Source of the DNA: Nemertoderma westbladi | Lineage: Eukaryota > Animalia > Xenacoelomorpha | Reading direction: 5' to 3' | DNA length: 64,000 nt | Assembly: GCA_032718475.1 (NCBI GenBank) | Contig: JAUCBJ010001563.1 | Location: 1 to 64,000, forward strand | The notes under the pieces: model-generated | The model's database searches: none | What the model saw: the letters and a program-made list of their open reading frames with translations, nothing else | Told to the model about the DNA's origin: nothing | Part shown: piece after piece, positions 27,777 to 60,633 of the stretch | How the letters are laid out: every line of letters begins with the position of its first letter | How positions within the stretch are numbered: position 1 is the first letter of the stretch | Translations under genes and position numbers: made by a program

Positions 27777-28793
27777 ATCTACCAATAGTGTTAGCGCTGA
27801 CTATCCATTTATCTACCAATAGTGTTAGTGCTGACTATCTGTTTATCTACCAATAGTATTAGTGCTGACTATCTGTTTATATACCAATAGTATTAGTGCT
27901 GACTATCCATTTATCTACCAATAGTGTTAGTGCTGACTATCCATTTATCTACCAATAGTGTTAGCGCTGACTATCCATTTATCTACCAATAGTTTTAGCG
28001 CTGACTATCCATTTATCTACCAATAGTGTTAGCGCTGACTATCCTTTTATCTACCAATAGTGTTAGTGCTGACTATCTGTTTATCTACCAATAGTATTAG
28101 TGCTGACTATCTGTTTATATACCAATAGTGTTAGTGCTGACTATCCATTTATCTACCAATACTGTTAGCGCTGACAATCTATTTATCTACCAATAGTGTT
28201 AATGCTGACTATCTGTTTATCTACCAATAGTATTAGTGCTGACTATCTGTTTATATACCAATAGTGTTAGCGCTGACTATCCTTTTATCTACCAATAGTG
28301 TTAGTGCTGACTATCCATTTATCTACCAATAGTGTTAGCGCTGACTATCCTTTTATCTACCAATAGTGTTAGCGCTGACTATCTGTTTATCTACCAATAG
28401 TATTAGTTCTGACTATCTGTTTATATACCAATAGTATTAGTGCTGACTATCCGTTTATCTACCAATAGTATTAGTGCTGACTATTCATTTATCTACCAAT
28501 AGTGTTAGTGCTGACTATCCATTTATCTACCAATAGTGTTAGCGCTGACTATCCATTTATCTACCAATAGTGTTAGTGCTGACTATCCATTTATCTACCA
28601 ATAGTGTTAGCGCTGACTATCCATTTATCTACCAATAGTGTTAGTGCTGACTATCCATTTATCTACCAATAGTGTTAGCGCTGACTATCCTTTTATCTAC
28701 CAATAGTGTTAGTGCTGACTATCTGTTTATCTACCAATAGTATTAGTGCTGACTATCTGTTTATATACCAATAGTGTTAGTGCTGACTATCTG
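27777..28793. repeat. 34-bp minisatellite, right block
   Basis: Same unit as the left block. Confidence 0.97.
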
Positions 28794-30141
28794 TTATGTT
28801 CAATTTCATTATGAATCCTAATTGTACGTGGTAGTTTATTTTGATCAATGCTGGTACAATTATACATTATTATTCCAATAGGACATATATTCACAGTATG
28901 GGACCTACCTACCTATATTCCTAGACGGGGGGGGGGGGGGGGGTTCGGGGAGCACTTGACTCAAATCCCATCTCTGCAAAATACTATATCGTCTCAATAA
29001 TAAATTATTAATTTTGACCGTAATCAGCTGTTATTTGCGTCGATTGACCCCTGGAGATTGATGAATTTTGACTGCATCGAAAATCCCCCACCCCATATAT
29101 GAAAATGTATCTTTGCTTATGCATTTACGCGAAAACATATATACTATTATCAAAAGCATTGATTATGTTCGCAATTGCATATATTACGGATGCAAATGCA
29201 TATATGCTCATACGTAAATATGTATGCAAAGCCATACGTGGGTGTATACTGTATATATTCATTTGCATATCCGTATCAAATATTATATTCATCCTTGGTT
29301 GGCCTGATATTCCGAACTTAATCCTCGCACTTCTATATTTCTCAGCTAAGTTTGTTAATGTATCTGTTTTTAGGGGACCTGAGACTTGAGTTCAACACGT
29401 TGCAAACAATGTAACGGATTGATTATGAGTTCGGTCTGGAATACCCATCTCGATCTCATCAGACGCACATACGCATAGGACACTCAGCTATTATAAACTC
29501 GAATATCTTCAATGACCAATCCCATAGGATCAAGCCTTAAAATGCTCACACAAATAAGCTCATTATTGCATACAACAAAGACTTCTAATTGCCCTCGTCG
29601 GTTGAAAGAGACGAAATTAAATCTTACTGCGTTTTCTTTTTTGATAAGATAAACGATTGTTGCGACATTTATACGACTATCCTCTAGGAGCAAATTATCT
29701 GCGTTGACTGAAATTTTCTGCCACAAAGTTGAATACGGCAAATGTGTTGAAACATTATATCGGTCCCTCCTGGTTTGGTGTTTAACCATATTAGCACTGG
29801 GGTGTTTAGTTAGACCATTGCATTGGCAGCAGTAAGGGGGGAGGGGGTGATTCGGCCCACCCAATGTATTTTTGTAATCGTCCAATGAAATCCTACACAA
29901 TTTGGACTGCAGGTAAAAAATTACCGATGAAAACAACCAAACCTTTAAAAATGAAAATTTCATAAGCTGTATATCATAATTTTCATGAAAAAAAATAAGT
30001 AGTCCCAGGACCAAATTTCAACATATTTGTTATTTTAAAAACTATTAGAGTTGCTTTGTTGGCTAGCTCTAGATGGAAGCAGCTGTATTGAATGCGATTA
30101 TATTCCATTCCCGAAAATTAAGCGTATGCTATTTTTCGTAA

Positions 30142-35841: not shown

Positions 35842-36793
35842 TTGGAGAGATATGTGAGATATTAATTTCAAGAAAAATTACGCGATTCCTAAATTTGTAC
35901 ACTACCCGGTTAAAAAGTACGCATGTGATTAGTCCTACAATTGCGCCAATAAAAGATAAGTTATTTTCGGTAAATCATTCGAGGTAAAGACCCCTAGATC
36001 CCTTCCTATAATAAATGTATAATAACAAACACCTCGAAAAATACAGCTTGCCAACACATTGTTACTATCAGTAATAGCACATCACATCATAAACGGTGTG
36101 ACACGTACGCGTACAATAGTTCATAATAGTCCATCACAGCTACACACACACCTTGACCCGTATTATAGTGTTATAATCTGGTGACAAGGAACCCACCAAA
36201 TTGTTCTTCAAATCTTTATCATATTGCTTTAAATTTGAAAAACAACTAGTTCAACTTACCGTCGATGTCCACATGCTAGAATTTTCTATTTTACCCTTAA
36301 TATTTTTTATGTTTTTATGTTTTTTAAAAGAGTTTTTAAAAGTGTCTTTTGCGAAGTCGCACCCTTCGCATCGCAGCCATTCTTCACAAGATTTTTATCA
36401 TTCGAAAGCTTGCGTTTCAAGGATTCTATTCCAAATATGTATCAATGTCTTCGATTCGTTGAGAAACATCTGATATATGGACGTTAAAATATTAGATAAT
36501 TAATACAAATCTGTGTGAAATATCGAATTCGTTTTTAGTCTGTTCAAGTTTCAAATGTTTCATTAATTATTATTTCGATCATCCACAAAATGAAATTCCC
36601 ATACTATAAAACTCTAAAAACTGTCACTAAATGGTATTAATGATTAAAAGTGAACTTTACTATTAAACATAAATATATTTTTTAATGGAACCAGTAATTA
36701 AGAAAGAGATGACGTGTGTGTATATTAGTGCTGAACACTGAAATAGAAACATGGATAAATCTTGAAAAGAAATTGATTGATAAATTCGAACTT

Positions 36794-39319
36794 ATGGGTA
36801 GAGTTAATATATTTGCCAGACTAAAACCAACTCCAAACATCTGTGAGTATTACCGGAACTCCAATGATGTCATTGAGGTTAATATGCCGGATACTCCTTT
36901 ACCAGGAAGCAGAACAACGTCATCCACTACCCAACACCGATTCGAGTTCAATCAAGTACTTGATATATACTCATCCCAGGAGAAAGTATTCGATGCTACT
37001 ACCAAAGGTATAATAGAATCTTTCATTGAGGGTTACAATGGGACCATCATGGCATATGGACAAACTAACAGCGGCAAAACCTTTTCCATACATGGTATAA
37101 ACGATAAACATTCTCATAAAGGCATTGCACCACGAGCTTTAACTATGATTTATGGAAAACTACCAGAAAAATCAGAAGTAAACGACGATATTTCAATAAA
37201 CATTTCGTATGTAGAAATTTACCAAGAGACATGTTACGATCTGTTGAGTCCTGTTGTTTCTTCATTCAATGGAGCTGCGAGTTATCCAAAGGTTTCTGTA
37301 CTCGAGACTTGTGGAGGTGATTACTCTCTACGCAATGTTAGCGTTCACCCTGCACCAAGGGAGGACATTGCACAGGCTTTACTAAACCGAGCTGTATTAA
37401 GTCGCAGTACATCGGAAACCACAACAAATCCGACATCCTCACGATCCCATGCTATATTTACTATCCACCTGAGTATCAGACATGGAGAAACTTCGCGACA
37501 CTCTAAACTCCACTTGGTAGATCTGGCGGGATCCGAACGTGTTTCAAAGTCACGAGTTGATGGCGTTCGATTGAATGAGGCGAAATTCATAAACCGGTCA
37601 CTCCATCATCTTGAACAAGTTATTATTGCTCTGCAAGTTAGTGAGCGCAACCACTCAGGCCGCTTTGAAACTCATATACCTTATAGGAATTCATTGCTGA
37701 CAATGTTGCTCAGAGACAGCCTGGGTGGTAACTGTCAGACATCAGTGATAGCGACAATGTCCATGGATATAAACAACATTGGAGAAACTCTATCAACCTG
37801 CCGTTTCTCCCAGCGATGTGCCTGTGTCTCAAATAATCCAGTTCGTAATGAAACACTAGATGATGCTGTTGTGATCCGTCAGTTGAAGAAAATAATTCAC
37901 GAATTGGAAAGAAAAATACAAACTTTAACGGCACCATTAACTTCCAAGTCGCATAGCATTGACTATGAAGATCTTGTTAATAAGTTTATCGATGGTGAAG
38001 TTGATAACATTGCACAATATGGTGTTAACAATGTAGAAGCCTTTAATTTATGCTTAAATATTTTGAAAACCAGAATAAACACTAGAGATCAAATAAGCCC
38101 GACAGTAATGACATCAGCCCAAGACACATCTACATCACAAGTTAAAATGTATAACAGTAGAGACATCCAAGGTCAGGTGAATATAAATATAACTGAAACT
38201 GCCGTATTTGATGGTGATTTAATTACAAATGGAGATAGTGGTTCCTCTAACAATGATCAAAGGAAAGAACATCCAAGGAAATTGTGTACTCCTTATGAAC
38301 GAAAGAAAAGCAAAGAATTACAAGAACTAAATATTCAAATCATCGATAGAGAAATAGAACAAAAGAAATCCGTGAGGAAGTTGGCAGAAGAACGGATGAT
38401 AATAAAAATGCAACGATTGGATATTACAAAACAGGAATTGGAAACTCAAATAGAAATGTACAAAGACAGAGTTGAAAATCAGCGAGGGTTTGTGCTGCAG
38501 ATGATACATGGGGGTGATTTATTGGATGATATTGAACAGGAAAAGATGGCAGAACACTTGTTAACGAAGAAGTTAAAAAAGTACCAACATCAATTGGCGA
38601 CAGTTAATGGGCAAATAGGAGTACTTGATCGAAAATATTTGAAGAAATATGATGAAACAGCAGAAGAATCATATGCACATGAAACGTTGGATTGTAGTAA
38701 TTCCTTACCCAAGTATCTCACAAGTAATATTGTTTCGCCAAAATATAAATCTCGGCTTGTCTATGACTATCTGAAAAATAAAGAGGATGACCAATTGAAA
38801 AATGATCAACAAATTAAAGAGGCAGCTCGGTGGCGTAAGATAGAAGAGTTGGATAACAAAGAAAAATTAACACGACAAAAACTCCAAGCTCTAAAACTAT
38901 CCCTAGGTACTACAGGTGGTTATGGCAAGAAATCTCTCCAAACTAATGATTCTATTACTGGATCAAAACTATCTAAAACTGAGCCAATCTCTGTAGAATC
39001 CATTACTAATTCCACAGCCAGCTTGTGCAACCAACATGTCAATAATGGGTCTATAGGAGAATACAAAAGCGCTAATGAAGCTGCGATAATTGTTGGTGAG
39101 AAGGGTAAACCAACTCTGTTTGGATCTCAGAAAGACACAGACCTCAAAAATTATAACTCAGATGCATACAACAACAGCTCTCATATTGCCATCATTGATA
39201 AGAAAGACTCTCGTTCCGAAACCAGAATAGCAGATAAACGATTGGAATATTTATTTACAAATATTATACAAAGTCAAAAAAATGGGTTGGTTGGAGAACA
39301 CTGTTTTAGCGAGGCATAG
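36794..39319 (+). CDS. Kinesin-9 family (KIF6/KIF9-like) motor protein, single exon
   Basis: P-loop GQTNSGKT, switch I SSRSH, switch II DLAGSER, EAKFINRSLHHLEQVIIAL, HIPYRNSLLTMLLRDSLGGNC, TCRFSQR; coiled-coil tail; first ATG at 36794. Confidence 0.9.
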   Translation: MGRVNIFARLKPTPNICEYYRNSNDVIEVNMPDTPLPGSRTTSSTTQHRFEFNQVLDIYSSQEKVFDATTKGIIESFIEGYNGTIMAYGQTNSGKTFSIHGINDKHSHKGIAPRALTMIYGKLPEKSEVNDDISINISYVEIYQETCYDLLSPVVSSFNGAASYPKVSVLETCGGDYSLRNVSVHPAPREDIAQALLNRAVLSRSTSETTTNPTSSRSHAIFTIHLSIRHGETSRHSKLHLVDLAGSERVSKSRVDGVRLNEAKFINRSLHHLEQVIIALQVSERNHSGRFETHIPYRNSLLTMLLRDSLGGNCQTSVIATMSMDINNIGETLSTCRFSQRCACVSNNPVRNETLDDAVVIRQLKKIIHELERKIQTLTAPLTSKSHSIDYEDLVNKFIDGEVDNIAQYGVNNVEAFNLCLNILKTRINTRDQISPTVMTSAQDTSTSQVKMYNSRDIQGQVNINITETAVFDGDLITNGDSGSSNNDQRKEHPRKLCTPYERKKSKELQELNIQIIDREIEQKKSVRKLAEERMIIKMQRLDITKQELETQIEMYKDRVENQRGFVLQMIHGGDLLDDIEQEKMAEHLLTKKLKKYQHQLATVNGQIGVLDRKYLKKYDETAEESYAHETLDCSNSLPKYLTSNIVSPKYKSRLVYDYLKNKEDDQLKNDQQIKEAARWRKIEELDNKEKLTRQKLQALKLSLGTTGGYGKKSLQTNDSITGSKLSKTEPISVESITNSTASLCNQHVNNGSIGEYKSANEAAIIVGEKGKPTLFGSQKDTDLKNYNSDAYNNSSHIAIIDKKDSRSETRIADKRLEYLFTNIIQSQKNGLVGEHCFSEA

Positions 39320-43657: not shown

Positions 43658-44815
43658 TGTAAAAGCTTTTGCGGAATTAGCCGGTTATTTTCCCCGTAAA
43701 GTACTCTGTAGTTGGTTTAACAGGCATAAAAGGCCGTATCCTTACTGTACTGGTGTTTTAGTGGACATAAAAAGCCATTTCTTCTGTATGTGTACTTTAG
43801 TGGACATAATTAGCAAATCTATGTCGCAATACGCGAAATCCTCTTGAAACAGTGTAGTTACTATGACGACAGCTAACAGCTGATCTGTACACGTGTAGCT
43901 TTTTTCCTTGTTCTCTGGTGTTTCTTTGTTCGGTCAACCAATCGGAGCGATTCTCCTGCTTTTTGTACAGAAACCTCCGGGAAATCGCGCAATGCATTAT
44001 GGGTCAATGTTTACATTTTGTCCTGAGCCCAGAAGACCGGCTTTGGAATCTCTGTGTTTTCAGTGTTTAGCCCAACATTAGTAGGCTTAATTATAGAACG
44101 TATATCTGTTATCTTACATATCATAACAATTTATACCTTAACATTTTGCTGCTATTTACTGTCGGTTATTCATTATATCAGTTGATGGAATATTATTATA
44201 TTTGGAATATCTATAAATAATTACAAAACCCTCAATCTTCTTGATATACTGAAGGTAAGAGAGACTGGTTACATATAACGATTGCGACTTACATTAAAGT
44301 GGCTTTGAAGTGAATCTAATGCTATTTCATAGGCACTACATGTATTGGTTGTTGTTCTCTTTATATGTGACTAAAATTAGTGAAGGTCGGCAGATCGGTG
44401 TGCAGCATTGTGCAGTATTGTGTATGATTGTGACTGATAACAAAGCATCTCCTAAAGAATGCGCTATATACGTGAATCCATAGCCATCCCGTTGTGTCTA
44501 GTTTAAGTCATAACTCTGTTTACATATTTAGAGCGCCACGTCCTAAAGGAACTGTTAATATTTCCCGAAAGTGAATAATATTTGTCAGAGATTATATATT
44601 ACGATCAGTCGAATAATACAGTAGGCCTACACCGCAATAAGGTTAGGCTTCCGAATCCAGTCTCCCAGGTATATCCAGCGGGTGAATGGTCGCGCATAGA
44701 CTGGCTTCGGCTAATGTAGTGTATCAAATACTCGTCATAGGCTAAAGACGATTTATTATCTAGAAGACATCCCAATTTGGCAGGTTAAACTGCTAAAGGT
44801 CTGAAAGCGCGAACA
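43658..44815 (+). repeat. 5' LTR
   Basis: Direct repeat of 59476-60633 with about a dozen substitutions counted by eye. Confidence 0.97.
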
Positions 44816-45094
44816 ATAACAGATATTGCTTCTGTATTGCGGTAGGCAATAAAGCTGAAGTACCGGTTAACCGGTACCTAGTAGGCCTGACTACCTAACT
44901 ACCCGGACCGGTACTTACAGCAGTACAGGTACAGCAGTATTATTCGATTTGATAATTATATACCGGTAGGCCTTAATATTGAATCAGGGAGGGCCCGCCC
45001 TGGTTTTTTATTGAGATTTTACTTATTTCTGTCAGTTTTATTTATTTGTAGGCCAATATTGAGCAGAAGGCGTGTAAGCCTGCTCAGATTGTAC

Positions 45095-45670
45095 AGATAA
45101 TTTGTAGGCTGGACTGTTGTCTGACTGTTGTTAAGTCTGAAGGGACTGTAGTGTGTGTAGAGCGTATGTCCGAAAAAGTACTAGTTAGGAAAGTAGGGGC
45201 TTCCAGTGCTGTGAGGTAAGCCCCCTCGAAAGAATAAGTCGTACTACTCAGTTAGAACGCATACTAAGTAACCATTTCGGAGTCTGCATATACTGTAGTG
45301 TATTTAGGCTTGATAGTAGTCTGCCAGCGTTTGGTCTGTACTTTGTTTGTGTAGTCTGTACGGGTAGCGTAATATTTCTTATTTAGATAATTTGTAGGCT
45401 GGATTTTGCCTGGCTGTTGTTAGGTCTGAAGAGATTTCGGTGTGTGTAGAGTGTATGTCCGATAAAGTGCCAGTTGGGAACGTAGGGGCTTCCAGTGATG
45501 TGAGGTAAACCCCCTCGAAAGAATAAGTCGTACTACTCGGTTAGAACGCATACTAACTAACCATTTCGGAGTCTGCATATACCGTAGTTTGTTTAGGCTT
45601 GATAGTAGTCTGTCAGCATTTGGTCTGCATTTTGTTTGAGTAGTCTGTACGCGTAGCGTAATATTTATTA
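45095..45670. repeat. Two tandem ~290-bp repeats in the element's 5' leader
   Basis: AGATAATTTGTAGGCTGGA at 45095 and 45385. Confidence 0.85.
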
Positions 45671-46619
45671 TTCAGAGTTTATGCGATTATTCGCAACATT
45701 CATATCCCCAAGTTTATTCCTACAGTAATTGTGCTTGTTATATATACCGTTATAGTTAAACTAACCCCGGTACTACATCAGGGCTGCTTGGCGTAGGTAA
45801 AGACTGGTGATTTTGTGCCCCGGTCACTCCAGCAGATGCCGTGGTTCTTTTAGCTGTTCAAGTATTTTTAACTTCTGATTATTTGTTGTATAAGTACTTG
45901 TACCTAATTTAGGGTTTAGTGTACAGTGCTTTCCGAAGGTGATTAGTGTGTGGGCAGTATATTTGTGTTGTAAAGTGGTTAATAGGCACGTTGGTTCTGG
46001 TAGACCGCGGTAATTAACTTCTAGGTAGGAACACTCCGTGATACATAATGTAGTACTTATAGCGATACGGCTATAAGTCGTCAGACGGTGGCATTTTCCT
46101 ATCTGGACAACGCAGTATATTTACTACTACTTATTATTTTCAAATACCGTAGTACCCTGTCCGTTGTAATAACCAGATATTCTAACCCTTTGTTAGGCTG
46201 GTTTGTACACTTCTTGTAAAATTACCCTAAAAATTCTTCCTTGTAATTTTTGTGTTTATTTAGAGATTGTAATCTCACCCCGAATTGTACGTAATTTGTA
46301 GTATTAAGTAACTTAGGTAAATTAGAATTATTTGTTTTAGTGTCCAACAAGTAGCACTTCACTGAGAGCGTACAGCTTCTGTGCGGTGACTCTTTCCCAG
46401 AAATAATAACATTTATTTCAAATATTGACAAAAACCCATTAAACGGGTATACATATATTATAAATCAACTCAAACCGATTTATAAAATAGTAGGCCTGTC
46501 ATACATCAATTAGGTCTTAATGTCAGTTTGACTACTGCTTAAATAACGGTAATCAAGTAAAGTAAAGTAAACAAGTAACCCCTAAAATTCAGAAATTCAA
46601 TTATTCTAAAATAATTGAC

Positions 46620-46995
46620 ATACCGGTATTTGCGATAGGCTTATTATATTTTTTTCTATAAATTTAGGCTGAAATTATACCGGTATTCTGTAATTAATTC
46701 TAGTCCATAATTATACTTATATATACTATAAGTGTAAGCTGTATACCGGTATTCACGATAGGCCTACTATATATTTCTATATATTTGTGCTGAAATTATA
46801 TACCGGTATTCTGTAATTAATTCTAGTCCATAATTATACTTATATATACTATAAGTATAAGCTGTATACCAGTATTCACGATAGGCCTATTATATATTTA
46901 TATATATTTGTGCTAAAATTACATACCGGTATTCTGTGACAAACCTAGTCTGTAATAATACTTATATATATACTATAAGTGTATACCGGTATTCT
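46620..46995. repeat. ~120-bp tandem repeats built on TACCGGTATT subunits, in the leader
   Basis: Directly visible. Confidence 0.8.
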
Positions 46996-47128
46996 AATAT
47001 ATTGTATATATATCATGTTACATAGAGTAACGATATCGGTAATTAATTACTAGGCTAACGGTGATACTGAATTACTAGACTTGCTTTAACTGTAATATAG
47101 CAGTAGGCATTCAACTGTATAAACAAAC

Positions 47129-50100
47129 ATGTCTGACACAAAGCCAAACCTGTCAGACAGTCTCCTAGATACAACCATCTGTGACCCAGGCAGGAGTGTG
47201 GAACGTGTGAGACCGAAGTTCAATTCACCTCCTACCGTAAGAAAGATCATCCCTCCAGTAGTAGTATCAGACCCTAGGCTAGTCCAACACCGTAGGTCTA
47301 TCATAGGCACTCGAGCTCAGGTCAAGCGGGACCAAGAAGCAGCAGAACGGCAGCAACACTCGAGCCGAGAACTTATTTCTCAGCGGCCTGACAGCTCCAG
47401 TAGTACGGATACTGTAGAGCTGACACCCGAGCGCGGAGCAAAGATGGCAGATGCGGTTTATTCAGATCCCCTTCTCATCCTTCCTGCAGCCGTACTCACT
47501 AGGGTATTGATTGCGGTGGAGGAACACCAGATTGATTGGGCGAGAAGTAAGCGATCGACCAAGGATAGTTATGCGGGATACACAAGGGAAGAACTGAAGT
47601 CTATTGTCGAGTCGCAATGGAACTTCCCCGGACCCGGACTCCCGTTTGACTTATCGGAAGCTGCCTGGGAAGACATACACAGGATGGGAGTGACAAAAGA
47701 AACCAGCGATCCAGCTGTGTGGAAGAGGTCAGCAGCAGGATACGTACAGGGATTCTTCAGCTCTATGGAGCGATTAGAGGAACAACTGTTTCGACAACCC
47801 CAAGGACCTCAAGAGCAGGGAGAGCTGCTTTATCAAGTTAGAGAAAGAATTCTAAGAATCAGACTAATCTTATCGGCGTTTGAGGAGGCTTCGAAAAGAA
47901 GACAAGACACGTCGTTGCAAGTTGCCGTAAAGACTTGGTTTCAGCGGGTGAGTTTCAAAGTTCAAGGAACTGCCCAGTGGAAATCTCAGCTGGTTGAGCG
48001 CTCAACCCATGGAGAATCAACAGACGCTACCTTCTCCCAAGTGGAAAGTGAAGTGACAGCAGAAAAACCGCATAAGAGGGATGCTATTGACATCTATCTG
48101 TCAGACTATCAACGATTTGTAGGTGACGAAGAGTTGAGGAGACGGCTGTCTGGACTTCGCCCTAATAGTGAAGGAGCCAAGCTTGTGTTGGACGCAATCG
48201 ATGCGGATATGAGAGCTGCGAACCAAGCTAAATTTGATGAACGCCTCCGCATCGCTAGAGTCCAAGAAGAACAAGTAAAGAAAAAACGTATAGAAGACAG
48301 AAAGATAGCAGCAGCGGCAGCAGCAGAGGCAGAAGCAGAAAGAAAAGCGGCAGAAGCGGAAAGAAAGGCGGCAGAGGCAATGGCAGCGGCAGAAGCGGAA
48401 AGAAAGGCGGCAGAGGCAATGGCAGCGGCAGAATCAGAAAGAAAAGCGGCAGAAGCGGAAAGAAAGCGAGCAGTGGCAGAAGCAGAACGAAGAGCATCTG
48501 AAGAGACCACCCAACTGGAGTTGGAAAATATTCAAGAGAATCAAGACTGCATAAATAAACAGTTAACAGCTAGTAATATGCAGATGATGAATCGATCTAC
48601 TCCCAAAAGACAGGGATATACATCATCTGAGGAAGGCGATACCACCGATACTGAAGGTGGAGGAAATAGATCTCGTCTCAGCAGACGTAGAAGAATGTCC
48701 CACCGTCAGAAATTGCCTGATTTGCCCCCAGCTGTTAGAAGGCAACTAACTAACACAGGCTTAGGTAGTACAGAACCCACAGACCAAATAATTAAAATAG
48801 AAAGACTCCCTACTATATTAGAAGAGCCTGAAATAATTAGGCCTGTTCTCGAAGCCACCCCCTCGGTGATAGAGACACCTGTACTCCCTGAACCTATCTC
48901 TAAATTCCCTCTGCACAGCACTAAGCTACCTGTGCCCAGCAGAACAGCCCATGAGACAGTTCATGTCCTGGACTCCGAGCGAAATATTAATGATTTGTCG
49001 CCCGTTGTCCCTCGTCCGCCCGCTACAACGTTGGCGGCTCCCGCTTCGGCGGTCGAGTGGGTGGATGAGAGACGGCGGGGGATGGATCTCCTGCTCGGGC
49101 AGATGCAGGAGACGGTTAAGCAGCAAAGGGCACAGTAAGGGAAAGTAGGTTAGAGTTGCAAGAAGTGCAGCAAAGTATCGCGTTAGAACGCGATAAATTA
49201 GTAAATACACAAAGGGGTATACCACCACCCCCGGTAACAATGTGTCAACCTGTTAGGTCTGAAGTATCTCATGCGCAAGGTGTGTAGCCTACACGCATCT
49301 ATACTGCTAGTGAAGTAGAAACTCCTCTAGTGAACCCTATTAAGGGTAATTATAAACCTGCTGACAATGATATTCCCTATAGACCTGATCATAATCCGAG
49401 AAATTTATATACCGATAACTCGATATTAAATAACACGATGGCCCAAGAAAGTTTTATGCGTCAAATGGCTAGAACCGAAGCCCGTCAAGCGGTAAAGGTG
49501 GGAGAGATAGTCAAGTTCAATGGAGATGAGATGAAATGGTTACCTTTTAATGAATATTACAAAGATAACATACAGAACTCTGTGCTATCAAATGGAGAGA
49601 AACTTAGATTCCTCATCGAGTGCTTGGAAGGATCTCCCAAGTTAATGGCGTTAAAGTTTATTGGACATCCAGATGGATTAAGACAAGTTTGGGATACACT
49701 AAACATCAGGTATGGTAATAGGAATAACATAGCTAAATATTTGTATGCAAAATTAGTAGCACCCCGAAAGTTCATTAGCAGCGGGATTATAGAGTTTTCC
49801 GATGAGATTCAAGAGATCTGTAGACAATTAGATTGGCTAGGTAAGTCTCATGAATATCAGAGTTCTATGGTTATTGGAGCTGTGGCTTCTACTTTACCGA
49901 AGGGTGGAGTAGGTACACGCTGGGATAAGAAAGTGTTATATATGATGGAACAACAACGCCGAGACCCTACCATGGCTGATCTTATGTCATTCTTAGATGG
50001 AGAAGTGAAATTACAGCTCCTAAAACAGTCCAGAGAGAAGACACCGGAAAACAAGGTAAGTGATAAACCAGTTTCTAGGAGAAAAGTAACACCAGTGTGT

Positions 50101-52083
50101 TATACCGACGACGGCGAAAGCCAGACTTCTCAAGGAGAGGATAGCGGGAAAGATACTGAAAGATCTTATTATGTCAATAAAACGCCTAAAGAACAGGTAA
50201 GTAAATTCAAGTCTCGAACCAATGACAGGAGAGAACAGGTAAGAAAAACTCCTCCTACGTCTCCTAAGAGAATTCAGGTAAGAAAGCCCGAAGAAAGAAC
50301 GAGTGTGCACAATGTTATTCAAAATAAGGTAAGTAACATCAAACCGAAATGTGTGCTATGTGACGGGACCCACCGTTTGAATATGTGTGATGAATTCCTA
50401 AAGAAATCATTAACGGAGAGACGGGAAGTCATGTGGGATAAGCGGTTGTGTTATAATTGCCTCAGACAAGGACACCAATGGCGAACCTGTTACTCCGACA
50501 CAAGGTGTGCAAAGTGCGGTGCGAAACATCATATCTTGTTGCACACTGAATTCGAACGAAACAGCCCGAGTCAGGTAAGTGATTCCGAACTACATGTCCA
50601 ATTCAGTGATGTGAACGACACGGACCAAAGTTCTGAGATGGAAGGATTCTATACGGACGAATTCTCCGATGAAAACGAATCCTGTTACATGATAAATACC
50701 GCAGTGTATCGAGCACTTACGTATGAAAAAGACACAGACAGCGACCTCACCCTAACTACTTCTGATCGACAACCATCTTGGAAAGCGCCAACTTCCAATG
50801 TAGGAATCCGAGAATTTCCTGTAGTACAGTTAAGGGTCCACGGACCTAAAAGGAGTTATATAGTGAACGCCCTTCTTGACTCCGGTAGTACAGGAACATT
50901 CATCGACAAAGAACTAGCCGAAGACATCTTTGCTGGACAACCCAAGTTCCGAACTAAGCTAAATATGTCAGGAATTATGCAGGTTTGGAAATCTACAGTA
51001 ATAGCGGATTATTATGTAGGTGCGTTGTCCACCCCCCAGGATGAACTAGGAGAACATAGTATAAGGTCAGTAAAAATGGTGGCGATAAAGAACTTCGCTA
51101 CCAGCCAAGTGGAACCTTATAACTGGGATGAGGACGATTTCACCCAGCAGCTTGAAATACCTAGATTCAACACCGATTACCCTGGAGTGCAAATACTCAT
51201 CGGTCAAAACGCGCATGAAGCGCTCGAGACATTGGAGAAACAGCCTGCTCAACCGCAACCACTACAAGCCTATGCGGGAAGAACTAGAGTGGGTTGGTAC
51301 TTTACTGGCCCTTCCCGTAGAACTCTCATGGAAAGATTACCAAAAGAACAGGTATATCATTTAAGTGAATGGGAAGTGGAGAGCAGTGAAGTTGACGACC
51401 CAACTGAGGGAACACCATACTCCTCAGATAATGACGATATTAACTCTAATGTAGATCAATGGAGATATTGCCCCGAGACGATTAATCTAACCAACATCGC
51501 TTCCAGAGGAGCAACTCCTCAAGAACTGACAGATACTCCAGACTGGTTAGGTGGACCCGACTTCCTAAGTAAAGTAGATGAATGGCCTCCCCATCTTACC
51601 ACGGCTGAGATTAGACAAGCCAAGGGAGCGGACAAAGTCAAACCTAAAACCCGGACGAGTAAATCAAGGTTATTTAAACCCGTGATAGATCTGTCTGTAT
51701 TACACATTGCGTGTATTGCACATCTAAACTCCCCCACCGCGAACCGATCTGTTGTGGAGATCAGAGAGAGAGACTGGAGATCTGGAACACCAGACATCTC
51801 GCCGGGACTCTCACCTCTCCTGCCGGGAGCGATGGACCACTATAGATCCTGGAATCGGCTTTGTAAGGCCGTCGTGTATTTGAAGCGATGTTTCTATCAT
51901 CACTATTCCAGGACGAAGAGGAAACCTGGAATTGTCTTCGAGACACAGCAGCTCAATCGCCCAGTTGGTCGTTTATGTTTACTGGAACGAGACCGAGAAC
52001 TGTCCGGAAACTATGGAAGGCAAGATACTCTTCCCACGACCACCTCCCTAATCCAACAAACATCTAGGGACTCCCCAACTTAA
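47129..52083 (+). pseudogene. Bel/Pao Gag-protease polyprotein, about 1650 codons; one frameshift near 49135 and one TAG at 49285-49287; RT and integrase absent
   Basis: DUF1759-like KFNGD..KW..F...LSNGEKLRFL; knuckles CVLC..H..C, CYNC..GH...C, CAKC..KHHILLH; protease LLDSGS; Pao RNase H tail QWRYCP..N..ASRG..WLGGPDFL; terminal RPVGRLCLLE. Confidence 0.88.
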
Positions 52084-53720
52084 CAACGGCTGGAGCGGGT
52101 GTGTGACTATATTTTGTATTTGTTTTTATTCTTTTATATTTATGTATGTATTATTATGTAATTTTATTATAATCATTTTCTTTAATTTTATTTAGTAGAA
52201 TGTTATTTTAGCGATTATTTAGTAGATTAGTGCAATATATATTAGTGTTTATTACTTAATTACTTATATATTATATATTTAGTGCGACGGCGAGAAATAA
52301 TTATTTTTCTCTTTCCTTACTGTCCGTATTACATTACAAATACGTAACTACAGTAAGATGAAATATCCGTACTTATTAAAGTACAATAAAGCTCCTACTA
52401 TATTCAAGTATTATTGGTAAAGTAGAGTATTAGGAATGCAAAATTCAGATCCTCGTGTCTCGGCTAAACCAAGCTCTGGGTAGACCTTGGAAACGACTTG
52501 CCTCTTCTCACTGACATTGCTTCGTGCGATATTGCTCTCATACCGTATATTAAATAATACATATAGTAGCGTGATGTCCCTTTAACAGTAGCGTACAACG
52601 CAAAATAAATCTGTTAAACCCTTTGACCATCTGTAATTCTAGTCGATTAAGATATCGCGGCACCCACCGATATACTTGAAAGACAAAATTCTAGAATCAG
52701 TGGTTAACGTCCCCAGACAAGTTCTGGAATAAACTGGTGCCCATCCTAAATATTAATTATTAATATTTACAAAATCTGTTAAATTTTAGATCCTTTAAAA
52801 TTCTAGTCTATTAAGATATCGTAGCACTTACCGATATTCTTAAAAAGACCAATTTCCTAGAATCAAGGATTCCAGTCCCCAGACATGTTCTGGAATAAAA
52901 TTGTGTCTATTTAACATTAAATAATAAAATTTACGGGAATAAATTTAAATTCATATTTTTAATGAATTTAATAAATTGTCATTTTTATACAATTTATAAC
53001 ATTCCCAAAATTCCTTTAATTAATAGATCATGGGAGCGGAGATTCACTCTATTAAGTGTATTAGTGTGCGAGAATCTCCAATATATAGTCAATAGCCGAT
53101 AAAATTCATAAAATCATGTATAGAGAGGATATTGACCATTAAAGAATTACTATTAAATAGCATCCCAGATCTGTATACATGAGAATTACCCTAATTCTAC
53201 CGCTAGCTTTCCATAATGTCACCATGGCAACAACCACGCTAGAATTAGAAGTGAGTTAAAAGAACAATAGAAAGCTTGCCCCATTGAATAGCATAGGGAA
53301 TAAATAGCGCACTGCTAGTATCCAAGGATACATAATAATAAAGTGACATTCTGGAAGGCACTGACTAACGGACAAATGGCCCGAATGTGTACAGTTTGTG
53401 ACAGTTGTGTTGAATTTGTGCATTTATAGGTGAATGTTACTGCTAAAAGTGTGTTTACAGTAGTGAGTCGCAATTGTGAAAGTAGCCCTAACTCTCCAGA
53501 AAGAACCTGAAGTACATCTAAGCCTTTGGGACGGACAGTGGAGTGACTTGTGCCGGTTATCGTTGTCGTTGTGTAGCTACATCGTTGGCGAAAGCACAGC
53601 GACGACGGTACATCGGCGCTGAGGATCTTGCACTGTCCGGGGGCAAAGAGGGGTAGGCAGCGACGCCCGCTAGCCTAAAATATAAACTCATTATAATATT
53701 GATAAACTCATATAGCAGAT

Positions 53721-56700
53721 ATGACTGAGTTGATAGAAGATGATCTTGGTATCAGGGAGCAATATACTCTACCTTTACAAGCGTTTGTCGATAGCTTGAT
53801 ACGCGGCGATGCTGGTCCAACTACTACGGAGGATGATGGTCGTTATATCGAACCGCCAATGTCCCCGGAGCAACTTACGCGTGAATTGGATTATAGAAAG
53901 TTCACCGCTCGCTATACGCATCGTAATGGTACGTATATGGACTTCTTAACTAATGGCCATCCTATCGATTTACACGATACGGACGATGTAGACACCAAAA
54001 GGGAAATGGTTTTATTTAAATATCATACCCAGCGGAGTCGGAACGATAAACCGAGAATAGAACACGAGAACTCTATTCGAAACAGACTCGAAAGGGAAGA
54101 CGTTGAAGAGCCGGATAAACGCAGCGACTTCAACGATTATCTGGAATTCCTGAGAGAGACATATCTCAATATTGCCAGCCAACAAAATCTCGAAACTCGA
54201 TATCCTCAAGGTATACATCATGATCCTATGATAGAACTCAAACGACTCTATTTCACTATGATGTATCTTACCGCCGATCGACCGCTACCTGTCGTCCCAG
54301 ATAGCTTCGAACAGATGGAGGAATATTGTAAAACTGGTGAACGATCACCCGCGTTTCCCCTGCAGGACGTGCGTCTTTGGTATTACTGCGACGAATGCCC
54401 TAGACCCAATCAGCAAACGGAAAGACATAAACATCCGCGGAGACGTTGCGCTAAACACAGTTTTACACGATATACTTACGGGAGTTTCGAGCGAAACCTG
54501 TTCGACGTATCACCTACGGTCGCTCGGCTCAAACGATCCTTGAATAAACCAATGATCAGAGTTCCGGAATACTCGGTCAGACCTCCTCATTCCTCAGTTA
54601 GACCTCAGACTCTTGAGCCTAATAGTATCACGGATCCTCCCGAACTGTACTCACTGTTCAAAGATCTAGTGTTACCCGAACAGTTGATCGGTGGCACTCC
54701 GGTAGTGGGCTCGCTAGATATTCGCCAACCCTACCTAGCCGGATTAGGACGCGGTCATCTAATATCGCCGTTTAACCCGTACAACCGTCCCGGCTTCACC
54801 CCGATACAACCCGTTACGGAAGTCGAAGAGAGCGTCGTACGAAACGCGTTAGACGCTATTCGGCAGAAAATCGGAAAGGGAACTTACGATTGTTTGGAGA
54901 AATGTAAATTGCAGCAACAAGTCCAAGCGGTGAAGGAATTAGCTTTACCCCAGTTCGATAGAGAAATACAAAATCTCGAGGAGGACATCGAACGTGGACG
55001 AACCTACTCTTTACAAGAGTTCCTAGATGAGCGTTTACAACAACAAGCGGAGGAAAATCAGCTCGAGGAGAGACATATAGAACTAGATGAGAGAGAAGAA
55101 GCAGCTTTAGCCCAGCCAGAAGCTCAAATCCTTATAACAGATCTCTATTCTAAAACCATTATCCATCCTTCGATGGTTCCTCATTTCGGAGACAAACTCT
55201 TCCCCACGGCACAGCCTCAACCGGTTGATATCAACCTAAGATCTCGAGATCTTATCGCTGATGCTCCCATGTTGCAACGTCCGCCCATCGAAGCCGCTCA
55301 TGTCGATGGTATACTCGTTGAACCTCCGGACAATAGAGCGGATCTTGTCCATCGCATGGTACACGATGTTAACATACTCGCTAGACCTTTACCGGACTCG
55401 TTTTATGGGATCAAAGATCACCCTTGTTGCGTCAATCTAACACAATATTACATGGTAAAACCGGAAGATCCTACACATAGTCTAAGGTTTCTACCACTAA
55501 TAAATCCTCTCGATCTTGTCGAACTCGAACAACTGCAGAAACATCTGGATCAGTTAGTTAAAGTTAACTCATTTCGAAAACCATATAATGTTTCCAGAAT
55601 AGAGAAAGAAACACTACCTCCGTATAATCTTGATGGATTCATCAAAACTCGATTAGTACACTGGAATCTTGACGTGTTATTCGAGGAGGAAAGAATACAA
55701 CGATATGGAGATGTGGAAACATATACTACACAATACTTAAAGTATAGAGATCTACCTAATGCTAGCGAATGCGCTACCTTGTGGCATCCAGTGGGAATGA
55801 CTCTCGAAAACGCCACTAAAGAGTGGAATGAGACTCTTAACGTTATCGAGATGTATGGAGTTGTCACTTACGATAACGAAGGTAGCGTTCCGGTTGGAGA
55901 ACTGGGAACTACGCGAATGATACACATATGAGGACTCGCTGGTTCTACCCACGTATTTACTCGAGCGTGTTCCGATGTGATTGATTATTCTTTTGAGACT
56001 CTTACTGAGACACAAAAGAAACTCCGACATGGACAATTCGAACTCGCGCAGCGTTACGTCACCGACACCGAGCGCAAACCAGCCATGGGTATCGATGGAT
56101 CGATGTTACCCCAGCCCGTGCTCGGAATGTTGTTTAACGAAAGAATCCTTAAAATCGGCTCAGCTGTTTATGGAGATCTACAAAACGACTTTCGGAACAT
56201 GGAGAACATTCCATACCCTTTCGTTGATACTCAGCTGATTGCTCCCTGGGCAGAAGGCCGAGGTTTCTTCCGCACTATGTATTAGGGCGGTGCGTTTTTT
56301 ACTTTTTTTCGATTTCATTGTTCTACCGGTGCACAAAAGTTGCCAAATGGTAAAAAAATAAGGCAAAAAAAATTTCTTTAAATTTCGTCTATATCTTCAC
56401 GGATCCCAAGAGGGTTGAAATTTTGTGCCATCGCGATGCACCATAATGAAATTTATAACAATATAACACATTGATGAAAGATCAATGACTCAAAAAAGGA
56501 CTTCCTGCATGCATCAAATGTCATCAAATGGGTCCAAACTTAGTTAGATACCAAAATTTTAATTTTTGGATCAAGGGAACTAGTGCCACAGGCACGTGGC
56601 CAGAACCTACCATTTGGCGCAAGTGATGATTATTCTCAATTTTCGCGATGACCAACTTTGAGTTCTCCTACTGCATTCATATTATGCTCATTAGAACCGC

Positions 56701-59397
56701 AATGGCCGATTTAGTGGGGGTAGACACCTTCAAAATAAACATAGAGGGAATAGTTCTTGAGATATCGCAGAAAATGTGAAGTCCGGCACAAGTCTACATT
56801 ACCACCTTGATGTGATATGGACAAATACACTAAAAATGATATTTTGAATTATCTCAAGGAATCACGAATAGACACATCACAGAAATGATCGATATAGTGG
56901 GTGAAGACACCTTCAAAATAAGAATAGAGTCATTAGTTCTTGAGTTATTTTACAAAATGTCAAGACTATGTCCACCAATTAATACTTGATATTGAGTTGA
57001 CCCATTCCACACATTTTGTACAAAAACTATAGTGAATTAATCACTACTCTTTAATTTTGAAGTTGTCTGTATACAGTAAATCAATTTGTTGCAGTGATGT
57101 GTATATTTTTGATGCCTTAAGATAATTAGAAGTAACATTTTTGTGTATTTGTCTATAAATCATCAAGGCGGTAATGTTGACTTGTGCCGTACTTTACATT
57201 TTCTGCAATATCTCAAGATCTATTCGCTCTATGCTTGTTTTGATGGTATCTACCCCCACTAAATCGGTCATTGCGGTTCTAATGAGCATAATATTAATGC
57301 CGTAGGATAAATAAAAGTTGTCCATCATCAAAATTGAGAATAATCATTACTTGCGCCAAAGAGTAGGTTCTGGTCATTTGCCTGTGGCACTACTTCCCTT
57401 GATCCAAAAATTAAAATTTTGATATCTAACTAAGTTAGGACCCATTTGATGATATTTGATGCATGCAGGAAGTTCTTTTTTGAGTCATTGATCTTTCATC
57501 AATGTGTTATATTGTTATAAATTTCATTATGGTGCATCGCGATGGCACAAAATTTCTACCCTCTTGGGATCCGTGAAGATATAGACGAAATTGAAAGAAA
57601 TTTTTTTTGCCTTATTTTTGTACCATTTGGCAACTTTTGTGCACCGGTAGAACAATGAAATCGAAAAAAAGTAAAAAACGCACCGCCCTACTATGTATGC
57701 CAATACACCCAGCGGCATTACTAAAGTACAACGAACCTCCATCGGACATCTTGCCTTTCAAGAATACGGATGGAATTTCAAGGTTGGAAATCCTATCAAT
57801 TACCAACAAGTATATGGAGATCATTATTCTCGTTTATACTTTGATGGACCATTGACCGCACCTGGCGCCGTGTATAGCTTTATGAGTGTTCCACTTCGTC
57901 CCTCCTTAGCTATATACACGATCTTTGAAAACGCAGCACTTGCTGGATGGCTAGCCGATGTGTGCAGTCGTACCATACGCACCCACCCCTTAATACTTGG
58001 AACCAAACTCGCCAAGTTAGATTAACACAATAAATTCATCCGCTTCGAATGTTTCAGGCGCTTTCTGACTCCGTTCCGTAACGTTGATAGTCAGTTCAAG
58101 GACCGCGCTCTGACCAAACTCAGCCTAAGAGACTCAGCTGCGGAGAAGCTAAACAGCGCGGGATTTGCCCTTTTCCAGGACGTTTGTATACAGAACTTAC
58201 ATTCATCTGTTATACAAAGACCCCGAATACCCACGGGTTATTCTGTCGTGGAAGTTCAGACAGTGGGTCCGCTTGCGGAGACAGCCGCACCTACCTCAGC
58301 TATGCAATTGGAAGACGAACCAATATGCTTAGAATCTGAGGCGATTCAGCCTACAGCGCCCCGGAGCAGCGATAACGACTACGTCTTAGAGTGGTATCAA
58401 GGTCCACAATGTCTCACCGCATACGATTATCGACACGCCAACTATGTTTCTCGAAAACGTTGTCGATTATGCGCATCGAGAGACCATTTCACCCCTATGG
58501 ACTCAGACGTACCCTGCTCCTATTTCCACGAACAACCGATGATGGAGATCTATTGTGCGTATTGCAGACTTAATAACTCGCACATTTTTGCAGTCTGCCC
58601 CCAATTTATGACTCAATGCCACCACTGTCAACTTAAAGGACATGCCAGTTATAATTGCCCCTTTAACCACGATTTAGAAAGCGTAGATGAGATGATTATT
58701 GCTTATCCTGCGCTACATCCGAGCTTGGGAAGCGAACGCGGATTTACATTGTGAGTCCCGCCATCGCTATTACCCTGGACGCTCTTACGAGGGAGTTTAC
58801 GCGTTCCATCCTTATTTATTCGCGTCTGTTGAACAAAAAACACGCACACCGAGTTACGAACTAATGAAGCGTGTTGGTGAGTGTATTTCCACCAAATTTG
58901 TTCGAAAATATCTCAGGAACGTCAATCCTAACGATATTACTTCATACCATTTGATCAATTTCATCCGTCAAGACCCTGAGTATGGCGATTTATTTATCAA
59001 CTCGCACCCTTAGTTACAGGAAGTATCTCGACGGCCCTACGAATATCGAGCCCGAGAACGTGAGCTGGAAAGAACCATTAAACCGAGGAAGTTTCTCACC
59101 ACTCACGGTCCACCTACCGCCATTGTCCAGACGACCCGTCAAGGACCCGTAGGAGCTGCTGTCCTAAGACGCGCCCTAAAGGCCGTTAGACCTCGCTCCA
59201 CTGAAGTTGATATCGATCAACCAGGTACTTCGACCGGCGGATACACCGATCGTAATCCTAAACCTTCTGATGCAATTGTATTGCACCCTTCACCCAGGAG
59301 TTACAGCCCTCCTAGTAAAGTGGCTCGCCCCAAAGAGAAAAGGACTCTTGCTAGCCTCAAAAAACTGCGTAAACGCCGTCCGCGTAAGAAAGACTAA
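53721..59397 (+). pseudogene. Extra gene (ORF3) of about 1420 codons after reconstruction: unknown N-terminus, DEDDy 3'-5' exonuclease-like domain, CCHC knuckles, basic tail
   Basis: The frame continues through TGA 55929, across the MITE (TSD CTATGTAT) and through TAA 58023; frameshift near 58740; TAG 59011; ends KKLRKRRPRKKD-stop near 59397. Confidence 0.8.
56283..57690. mobile_element. 1408-bp foldback MITE, hAT-like
   Basis: TIR TAGGGCGGTGCG; 8-bp TSD CTATGTAT (56275-56282 and 57691-57698); arms complementary over most of the length. Confidence 0.92.
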
Positions 59398-59465
59398 CTG
59401 TTTAGAGTATTTTTATATTTTAGAAACTGTGATTTTTTATATTTTATAGACTAAAATCCCATTTT

Positions 59466-59475
59466 CTGGGAGCGG
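59466..59475 (+). other. Polypurine tract before the 3' LTR
   Basis: CTGGGAGCGG directly followed by TGT. Confidence 0.7.
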
Positions 59476-60633
59476 TGTAAAAGCTTTTGCGGAATTAGCC
59501 GGTTATTTTCCCCGTAAAGTACTCTGTAGTTGGTTTAACAGGCATAAAAGGCCGTATCCTTACTGTACTGGTGTTTCAGTGGACATAAAAAGCCATTTCT
59601 TCTGTATGTGTACTTTAGTGGACATAATTAGCAATTCTATGTCGCAATACGCGAAATCCTCTTGAAACAGTATAGTTACTATGACGACAGCTAACAGCTG
59701 ATCTGTACACGTGTAGCTTTTTTCCTTGTTCTCTGGTGTTTCTTTGTTCGGTCAACCAATCAGAGCGATTCTCCTGCTTTTTGTACAGAAACCTCCGGGA
59801 AATCGCGCAATGCATTATGGGTCAATGTTAACATTTTGTCCTGAGCCCAGAAGACCGGCTTTGGAATCTCTGTGTTTTCAGTCTTTAGCCCAACATTAGT
59901 AGGCTTAATTATAGAACGTATATCTGTTATCTTACATATCATAACAATTTATACATTAACATTTTGCTGCTATTTACTGTCGGTTATTCATTATATCAGT
60001 TGATGGAATATTATTATATTTGGAATATCTATAAATAATTACAAAACCCTCAATCTTCTTGATATACTGAAGGTAAGAGAGACCGGTTACATATAACGAT
60101 TGCGACTTACATTAAAGTGGTTTTGAAGTGAATCTAATGCTATTTCATAGGCACTACATGTATTGGTTGTTGTTCTCTTTATATGTGACTAAAATTAGTG
60201 AAGGTCGGCAGATCGGTGTGCAGCATTGTGCAGTATTGTGTATGATTGTGACTGATAACAAAGCATCTCCTAAAGAATGCGCTATATACGTGAATCCATA
60301 GCCATCCCGTTGTGTCTAGTTTAAGTCATAACTCTGTTTACATATTTAGAGCGCCACGTCCTAAAGGAACTGTTAATATTTCCCGAAAGTGAATAATATT
60401 TGTCAGAGATTATATATTACGATCAGTCGAATAATACAGTAGGCCTACACCGCAATAAGGTTAGGCTTCCGAATCCAGTCTCCCGGATATATCCAGCGGG
60501 TGAATGGTCGCGCATAGACTGGCTTCGGCTAATGTAGTGTATCAAATACTCGTCATAGGCTAAAGACGATTTATTATCTAGAAGACATCCCAATTTGGCA
60601 GGTTAAACTGCTAAAGGTCTGAAAGCGCGAACA
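59476..60633 (+). repeat. 3' LTR
   Basis: Direct repeat of 43658-44815. Confidence 0.97.

What the first reader, a model, noticed from the sequence alone, without database searches (positions are those of the whole stretch)
55830..57960. Hidden DEDDy (WRN/Mut-7/EXD-like) 3'-5' exonuclease domain in the extra gene of a Bel/Pao LTR element
Seen: reading through TGA 55929 and removing the MITE plus one TSD joins three ORF-track fragments in one frame: VVTYDNEG...TTRMIHIxGLAGSTHVF...LPQPVLGMLFNERILKIGSAVYGDL...FVDTQLIA...TSIGHLAFQEYGWNFK...VPLRPSLAIYTIFE. Knowledge: this follows the block order of WRN/RNase D-type exonucleases (ExoI DxE; LP..L..LL....ILK.G.....D ExoII; FVD; SL..L; RPL....YAAxD ExoIII). 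ExoI falls at 55872-55880, the ExoII Asp at 56175 and ExoIII at 57915-57929, with Glu replacing the last Asp. Extra DEDDy ORFs are known from bdelloid rotifer LTR elements and giant Penelope-like elements; I do not know of them in Bel/Pao. Inference: host relatives (Mut-7/Nibbler, EXD1) act in small-RNA/piRNA pathways, so this could be a transposon-borne anti-silencing or RNA-processing factor.
Basis: partly seen in the sequence, partly recalled or inferred. Interest (0 to 1): 0.9.

Follow-up and report, generated by a model that had tools for sequence, protein, structure and literature searches.

The report
Retrotransposon's third gene hides RNA-trimming nuclease
A young, many-copy jumping gene of the Bel/Pao type in an animal genome carries a large extra gene, broken in this copy but open at those points in its sister copies, that likely encodes a highly divergent RNA-trimming enzyme with zinc fingers, a kind of cargo already described in rotifer retrotransposons.

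Summary
A 17-kb LTR element (LTRs 99% identical) has Bel/Pao-type gag and protease but no RT or integrase, followed by a third gene of about 1,420 codons. Three stops, a 7-base excess and a 1.4-kb foldback insert break it, but contigs of sister copies differ at every break, and listed variation falls mostly on third codon positions (15 of 19 in the nuclease region). The nuclease call is supported only in part. The ExoII/strand-5 core matches RNase D (the only NCBIfam families hit; best of 2,023 window pieces with a DEDDy profile, E 0.001). ExoI is moderately supported. ExoIII (Glu for Asp) is not significant, two ~40-residue insertions are needed, and no fold was obtained. Nothing favours WRN/Mut-7/EXD over RNase D, and anti-silencing is untested. 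Three zinc-knuckle-like motifs follow the domain. DEDDy third genes are known from rotifer Ty3/gypsy elements, and this scan noted similar ones in other genomes. My paper searches found none in Bel/Pao, but I recall, unverified, a 2001 mention for C. elegans BEL elements. Verdict: new variant of a known kind, interest 0.5.

The parts
43658..44815 (+). 5' LTR, 1,158 bp, TG...CA
   Evidence: 99.05% to the 3' LTR, 11 mismatches; flanking 5-mers match at 4 of 5 letters
44816..44826 (+). primer-site position; 11 nt complementary to 44102-44112 inside the LTR (self-priming signature, inferred)
   Evidence: exact 11-nt match; 27 of 20,000 LTR shuffles hold it
47123..49138 (+). first part of gag-like gene, coiled-coil rich; separated from the next ORF by a frameshift and a stop (49285) in this copy
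   Evidence: no Pfam family over cut-off
49288..52083 (+). gag (DUF1759, Cys-His array), aspartic protease, short pol remnant; no RT, no integrase
   Evidence: PF03564 E 5.1e-11, over cut-off; Asp_protease_2 E 0.0019, under cut-off; no family for 51301-52080
53706..55928 (+). third gene, first open piece (741 aa; first ATG 53721); N-terminal ~700 aa of no known family; ends with ExoI
   Evidence: 16 of 25 listed variable places before 55760 on third positions
55860..55883 (+). candidate ExoI strand with Asp 55872 and Glu 55878
   Evidence: rank 35 of 67,323 sites in the window; best site of the 70 codons before the stop, reached by 488 of 5,000 shuffles
55929..55931 (+). stop codon particular to this copy
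55932..56282 (+). second open piece (117 aa): ~40-aa insertion, then the ExoII block (Asp 56175) and strand 5 (56220)
   Evidence: TIGR01388 E 0.0036, PRK10829 E 0.016; E 0.00096, best of 2,023 pieces; both blocks rank 1; Asp in register with RNase D residue 85
56283..57689 (.). foldback DNA insert (non-autonomous; Mutator-like by its 9-bp duplication and long arms, inferred)
   Evidence: insert-free contigs
57699..58022 (+). third open piece (108 aa): candidate helix (57735) and candidate ExoIII, Tyr 57915 / Glu 57927; rival register with Tyr 57873
   Evidence: rank 198 of 32,421, not the best register in its piece; not aligned by hhalign; model pLDDT 36.9
58026..58754 (+). fourth piece with three zinc-knuckle-like motifs (58461, 58554, 58617)
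   Evidence: zf-CCHC_3 E 0.00059 (under cut-off)
58696..59397 (+). end of third gene (shifted frame, stop at 59011, basic Lys/Arg tail)
   Evidence: 9 of 15 listed variable places on third positions
59466..59475 (+). polypurine tract
59476..60633 (+). 3' LTR

Best explanation
This is a recently inserted LTR element with Bel/Pao-type gag and protease, no reverse transcriptase, and a large third gene that is broken in this copy but open at those points in sister copies; the gene likely encodes a divergent RNase D/WRN-type (DEDDy) 3'-5' exonuclease joined to zinc knuckles, which would trim the 3' ends of the element's own RNA or cDNA intermediates. Shown: the element's anatomy, that the breaks are particular to this copy, the third-position bias of family variation, and the ExoII/strand-5 match. 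Inferred: that ExoI and ExoIII complete the site as D-E-D-E; that the zinc knuckles and basic tail bind nucleic acid and bring the enzyme to the element's ribonucleoprotein; and that RT and integrase come in trans from an autonomous relative. Odds: DEDDy-derived domain about 0.85. Given that, work on the element's own nucleic acid about 0.5, on host small RNAs about 0.25, binding without cutting about 0.25.
For: LTRs of 1,158 bp, 99.05% identical. DUF1759 over cut-off. Stops and insert differ in sister contigs of 4 of 4 laid runs for the stops and 2 of 4 listed for the insert. Third-position share of listed variable places: 15 of 19 in the nuclease region (P 6e-5), 44 of 64 over 53706-58690. 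Of 18,950 NCBIfam models only two hit piece 55932-56282, both RNase D (E 0.0036, 0.016); none of the other 7 pieces hit them. Ungapped 43-residue BLASTP alignment to E. coli RNase D with the Asp on residue 85; hhalign probability 82%, E 1e-5. A 60-sequence DEDDy profile ranks this piece first of 2,023 (E 0.00096; next 0.43). Block scans: ExoII rank 1 of 35,591, strand 5 rank 1 of 67,323, ExoI rank 35 of 67,323, all in the right order. By eye the blocks also follow the WRN sequences printed. Zinc knuckle E 0.00059. Rotifer DEDDy ORF3s tolerate an Asp-to-Glu change (DEED) and were proposed to process 3' ends of element RNA (PMC5408684, passages).
Against: No Pfam hit for any nuclease piece, nor for a 184-residue read through the first stop. 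No exonuclease among PDB sequence hits for two pieces. ExoIII is not significant (the best register in its piece is another one, reached by 881 of 5,000 shuffles), and strands 2 and 3 and the helix blocks scored at chance locally. With the RNase D-dominated profile neither ExoI nor ExoIII was among the top three sites of the gene. hhalign gave E 0.8 and 0.72 for those pieces. Spacings are 101 against 57 and 91 against 50 residues. No relative outside the family's own contigs was found, so cross-species conservation of the acidic residues is untested. The variation tables show only the 40 best-supported rows of 805 and 375, so conservation among copies is not shown either. No fold. Nothing here bears on the substrate.
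Confidence: 0.5

Rival explanations
1. The DEDDy domain is an anti-silencing factor: it trims or destroys host piRNAs or siRNAs aimed at the element.
For: Host DEDDy proteins of the Mut-7/Nibbler and EXD1 kind act in small-RNA pathways (recalled; EXD1 and mut-7 are also named in PMC5408684, passages). The large N-terminal part could dock on host factors. The family is multi-copy and young.
Against: No closer link to Mut-7/EXD than to RNase D was shown. In rotifers the DEDDy ORF3 showed no clear tie to copy number, and every ORF type drew small RNAs (PMC5408684 section 3.5). No small-RNA data here.
Confidence: 0.2
2. The domain descends from a DEDDy nuclease but no longer cuts; with the zinc knuckles it works as an RNA-binding or scaffolding module, as EXD1 and Maelstrom are said to.
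For: The last catalytic position is Glu in the favoured register and Ser in the rival one; the ExoIII block scores poorly; two large insertions. PMC5408684 calls EXD1 and Maelstrom catalytically inactive DEDD derivatives.
Against: Asp-x-Glu, the ExoII Asp and a Tyr four residues before an acidic residue are all present. The listed changes next to ExoI fall on third positions (55859, 55865, 55871).
Confidence: 0.2
3. The gene is a real, selected accessory gene of unknown fold, and the nuclease resemblance is confined to one 46-residue stretch by chance or convergence.
For: Only ExoII and strand 5 are clearly significant; library-wide E-values are modest (0.0036); Pfam and PDB searches are blank.
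Against: The only families hit are the ones predicted in advance. The match is ungapped with the catalytic Asp in register, and an ExoI-like strand lies upstream in the right order.
Confidence: 0.1

Closest known systems
DEDDy ORF3 of Juno and Vesta LTR retrotransposons and of Terminons in bdelloid rotifers (PMC5408684: passages and section 3.5 read; supplement listed, not read; PMC6431247: passages)
   Same: RNase D-like DEDDy domain in the third-gene position of an LTR element; one catalytic Asp changed to Glu; more divergent than host enzymes; function untested.
   Different: Here gag and protease are of Bel/Pao type (the rotifer lineages are Ty3/gypsy, recalled); the change falls on the last acidic residue (D-E-D-E, if the register is right) and not DEED; the gene is about 1,420 codons with a ~700-residue N-terminal part, three zinc-knuckle-like motifs and a basic tail; this copy has no RT. 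No sequence comparison with the rotifer proteins was possible.
RNase D / NrnC / WRN-exo / EXD2 / Mut-7 (PF01612 group; structures listed)
   Same: Block order ExoI, ExoII, strand 5; ExoII Asp in register with E. coli RNase D residue 85; a G-x5-D ExoII pattern as in WRN.
   Different: Two ~40-residue insertions, Glu in place of the ExoIII Asp, below all curated cut-offs. An RNase D-like chain labelled 'CCHC-type domain-containing protein' (7c42) is a cellular parallel for nuclease plus knuckle; that it is the trypanosome RNase D is recalled.
C. elegans BEL-like (Cer) elements of Frame, Cutfield and Poulter 2001 (PMID 11223261)
   Same: I recall that its abstract mentions RNase D-like sequence in some C. 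elegans BEL elements; if so it is a Bel/Pao precedent.
   Different: Recalled only: the paper is not held and I saw just its citation in a reference list. Any relation to this gene is untested.
KolobokD DNA transposons with a DEDDh exonuclease (PMC9587614, passages)
   Same: A transposon-borne DnaQ-superfamily exonuclease proposed to act on transposition intermediates.
   Different: DNA transposon; DEDDh and not DEDDy.

Membership tests
DEDDy 3'-5' exonucleases (RNase D/WRN group) | ExoI Asp-x-Glu at the end of a hydrophobic strand | tested here: met
   residues at 55872/55878; rank 35 of 67,323 with the merged profile, 488 of 5,000 local shuffles reach it; not in the gene's top three with the RNase D-dominated profile: moderate support
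DEDDy 3'-5' exonucleases (RNase D/WRN group) | ExoII Asp in the L..LL....ILK.....D block, followed by strand 5 | tested here: met
DEDDy 3'-5' exonucleases (RNase D/WRN group) | ExoIII Tyr-x3-Asp on the C-terminal helix | tested here: inconclusive
   Tyr-x3-Glu at 57915-57929; rank 198 of 32,421; rival register at 57873; not significant against shuffles; not aligned by hhalign
DEDDy 3'-5' exonucleases (RNase D/WRN group) | RNase H-like fold with the four acidic residues in one site | tested here: inconclusive
   only the 108-aa third piece was folded, without an alignment: pLDDT 36.9; no fold search run on it
DEDDy 3'-5' exonucleases (RNase D/WRN group) | metal-dependent 3'-5' exonuclease activity | not testable with these tools
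   needs an assay
WRN/Mut-7/EXD branch specifically | closer to WRN, EXD or Mut-7 than to RNase D/Rrp6 | tested here: inconclusive
   bacterial WRN-like profile (10 sequences) E 0.1; RNase D/NrnC-dominated profile (52 sequences) E 0.024; no eukaryotic set, no tree
Bel/Pao LTR retrotransposons (Belpaoviridae) | TG...CA LTRs with a short target duplication | tested here: met
   (5-bp flanks match at 4 of 5)
Bel/Pao LTR retrotransposons (Belpaoviridae) | Bel/Pao-type gag (DUF1759, Cys-His array) and protease | tested here: met
   PF03564 E 5.1e-11; Cys-His motifs at 50350, 50449; protease E 0.0019. That DUF1759 marks Bel/Pao gag is recalled.
Bel/Pao LTR retrotransposons (Belpaoviridae) | pol with RT, RNase H and integrase, RT grouping with Bel/Pao | tested here: not met
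   no RT, RNase H or integrase family in the element's ORFs; filed therefore as a pol-deleted derivative of Bel/Pao type, not as an autonomous member

The most novel reading that the evidence does not exclude
A Bel/Pao lineage has its own, undescribed family of ~1,400-residue accessory proteins with an active D-E-D-E exonuclease and zinc knuckles, too divergent for any current protein collection, that either disarms host small-RNA defence or finishes the 3' end of the element's self-made primer; pol-less copies keep it because it helps their own RNA.
Probability: 0.25. Interest if true: 0.8.

Novelty: new variant of a known kind. Interest (0 to 1): 0.5.

Why it matters
Third genes of Bel/Pao elements described in the papers I could read are envelope genes. 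A selected, multi-copy nuclease-plus-zinc-knuckle gene would extend the rotifer finding to another LTR group and suggest that 3'-5' exonucleases are a recurrent accessory function of retroelements. What these enzymes do is an open question since 2017, and a young high-copy family with uninterrupted natural copies makes it testable. The self-priming signature in the same element offers one concrete substrate.

Tried and rejected
No genome is held for the window, so no whole copies, dN/dS or pol-bearing partner could be examined. Homologue searches were blank: residues 640-858 of the read through the first stop (376 candidates), third piece against longer proteins (266 candidates), second piece against 1.84 billion representatives (one hit, a repetitive protein outside the motifs, rejected), viral contigs, metagenome contigs (one 13-residue off-frame match in a bacterial-looking gene, rejected). 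No Atlas result was obtained, so language-model look-alikes remain untested. PDB sequence searches with two pieces gave no exonuclease. The single-sequence fold of the third piece was uninformative. The second fold job was not used, because an alignment of known DEDDy proteins under the query would have imposed the fold. Expression: no RNA holder listed; run X5 is only guessed to be RNA and was not used as evidence. Contig depth was not read as copy number. Literature: ten searches listed no paper on an exonuclease ORF in Bel/Pao. Term look-ups found no 'exonuclease' in PMC3118150, PMC554778, PMC9094657, PMC2774666 or PMC13524379 (passages only; supplements not read, and the element sequences in the supplements of PMC3118150 may bear on this). 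Frame et al. 2001 and a PMC id that I recalled for a Cer-element paper are not held. No look-alike of this DNA among earlier scan findings. Nine of 60 fetched reference loci were dropped from the first profile for low score to RNase D; the lowest-scoring loci printed look like DNA polymerase I domains.
Full report
Anatomy. The finding lies in an LTR element spanning 43658-60633. Its LTRs are 1,158 bp, TG...CA, and differ at 11 places (99.05%); the flanking 5-mers agree at 4 of 5 letters. Inside are a leader of about 2.3 kb, a gag-like gene in two pieces (47123-49138 and 49288-52083) and, after 1.6 kb without a long forward ORF, a third gene from 53706 to 59397. The second gag piece has DUF1759 (E 5.1e-11, over cut-off), Cys-His motifs and a weak aspartic protease hit. 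No RT, RNase H or integrase family was found, so this is a pol-deleted element of Bel/Pao type; that DUF1759 marks Bel/Pao gag is recalled. A polypurine tract precedes the 3' LTR.

Observation. The insert is 1,407 bp (56283-57689) with 556-nt arms and a 9-bp target duplication, and both flanks are in one frame.

Is the gene real? No genome is held, so I laid contigs of 4 of the 7 listed public runs (three of organism A, one of organism B) on the gene in two parts, leaving most of the insert out. Thousands of contigs lie on it in X1 and X3, most 90-99% alike, so it is a multi-copy family. At 55929 another letter is read by 104,629 of 104,755 depth units in X1, 117,441 of 117,498 in X3 and all in X4 and X5. 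At 58023 and 59011 it is all or nearly all in each run. Contigs lack 7 bases near 58696-58708. Loose ends at 56282 continue with the sequence found after the insert (9 contigs in X3, 2 in X5). The breaks therefore belong to this copy. Of the variable places listed (the 40 best-supported of 805, and of 375), 15 of 19 in the nuclease region and 44 of 64 over 53706-58690 are third codon positions (P 6e-5 and 8e-9 against one third); 9 of 15 in the last frame. This points to purifying selection on the protein in the family. It is not dN/dS, and the listed rows are a selected subset.

Is it a DEDDy nuclease? Pfam gave nothing for the pieces or for a read through the first stop, nor did the PDB sequence search. 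NCBIfam gave two families for piece 55932-56282, both RNase D (E 0.0036 and 0.016, far under cut-off), and neither for the other 7 pieces. BLASTP to E. coli RNase D aligns 43 residues without gaps and puts the Asp at 56175 on residue 85, an invariant column in my reference alignment. I built profiles from bacterial references: 52 sequences dominated by RNase D/NrnC (51 of 60 fetched loci plus E. coli RNase D), 10 WRN-like, and 60 merged. Scored against all 2,023 stop-to-stop pieces of the window, the same piece came first each time (E 0.024, 0.1, 0.00096; next best with the merged profile 0.43); hhalign gave 82%. Block scans with the merged alignment: ExoII rank 1 of 35,591 (2 of 5,000 shuffles), strand 5 rank 1 of 67,323 (0 of 5,000), ExoI rank 35 of 67,323 and the best site in the 70 codons before the stop (488 of 5,000 shuffles). 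Against the reading: ExoIII ranks 198 of 32,421, is not the best register of its piece, and has a rival register with Ser at the catalytic place. With the RNase D-dominated profile ExoI and ExoIII were not in the gene's top three, and hhalign did not support them. The spacings ExoI-ExoII and strand 5-ExoIII are 101 and 91 residues against 57 and 50 in RNase D. By eye the blocks follow the WRN sequences printed, including the G-x5-D of ExoII and PL-x6-Y-x3-acid of ExoIII, but that is not a test. A single-sequence model of the third piece was uninformative. I put a DEDDy origin at about 0.85, and I cannot choose between the WRN/EXD and RNase D branches.

Relatives. None was found outside the family's own contigs. 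These collections are mostly microbial, so this is weak evidence of rarity.

Mechanism. Most likely the third gene encodes an accessory 3'-5' exonuclease that its zinc knuckles and basic tail bring to nucleic acid, and that trims 3' ends of the element's RNA or cDNA intermediates, with RT and integrase supplied in trans (all inferred). The element has 11 nt after the 5' LTR that pair with the LTR itself (a lead), so a self-made primer is one candidate substrate; this link is speculation. Rivals are anti-silencing (0.2), a non-cutting RNA binder (0.2) and an unrelated fold (0.1).

Comparison with what is known. Rodriguez et al. 2017 (PMC5408684; passages and section 3.5) describe DEDDy ORF3s with a DEED motif in rotifer Juno and Vesta elements and Terminons, with activity untested and no clear departure from neutrality within the genome. 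PMC6431247 and PMC9587614 (passages) cover Terminons and KolobokD. Ten searches listed no report for Bel/Pao, and five papers on Bel/Pao or LTR elements lack the word exonuclease. However, I recall that Frame et al. 2001 mention RNase D-like sequence in C. elegans BEL elements; the paper is not held, so novelty in Bel/Pao is not established. This scan has noted RNase D/Rrp6-like third genes with zinc knuckles, including a pol-less element, in other genomes (unchecked notes).

Verdict. The gene is real and appears to be under selection; the DEDDy domain is likely but only half demonstrated; function is untested. New variant of a known kind; interest 0.5.

Noticed in passing
window 44816-44826 and 44102-44112: The 11 nt right after the 5' LTR do not start like a tRNA primer site and are the exact reverse complement of 11 nt inside the LTR (27 of 20,000 shuffles): a self-priming signature, as earlier scan notes describe for other Bel/Pao elements.
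   Followed up: partly
window 51625, 52092, 53033, 59469: The 7-letter word of the polypurine tract occurs four times in 64 kb, all inside the element; the one at 52092 follows the gag-protease stop and precedes TGT like the true tract. It may be a relic 3' end behind which the third gene was added.
   Followed up: partly
window 54088/58310 and about 55090/59235: Loose ends of contigs in several runs join these places, pointing to internally deleted derivatives that lack the nuclease.
   Followed up: partly
window 49100-49287: The gag gene is also broken in this copy (frameshift and stop), although the LTRs differ by under 1%. Three stops in the third gene against about 0.9 expected since insertion suggest that the template may already have been defective.
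   Followed up: partly
window 13185-13874: A second fragment of the same gag-like gene (87% over 156 aa).
   Followed up: no
window 36713-39316: An 868-codon uninterrupted ORF with a kinesin motor domain (PF00225 E 3e-87): an intronless host gene or retrocopy.
   Followed up: no
window 17400-19772: 791-codon ORF with weak DUF4218 and Transposase_21 hits, likely a CACTA-type transposase.
   Followed up: no
window about 22700-29000 and 25850-27778 (-): A 34-bp tandem array interrupted by a GC-rich stretch with a 643-codon ORF of no Pfam family.
   Followed up: no
window 21683-22675: 331-codon ORF with DUF4806 (E 2e-08).
   Followed up: no
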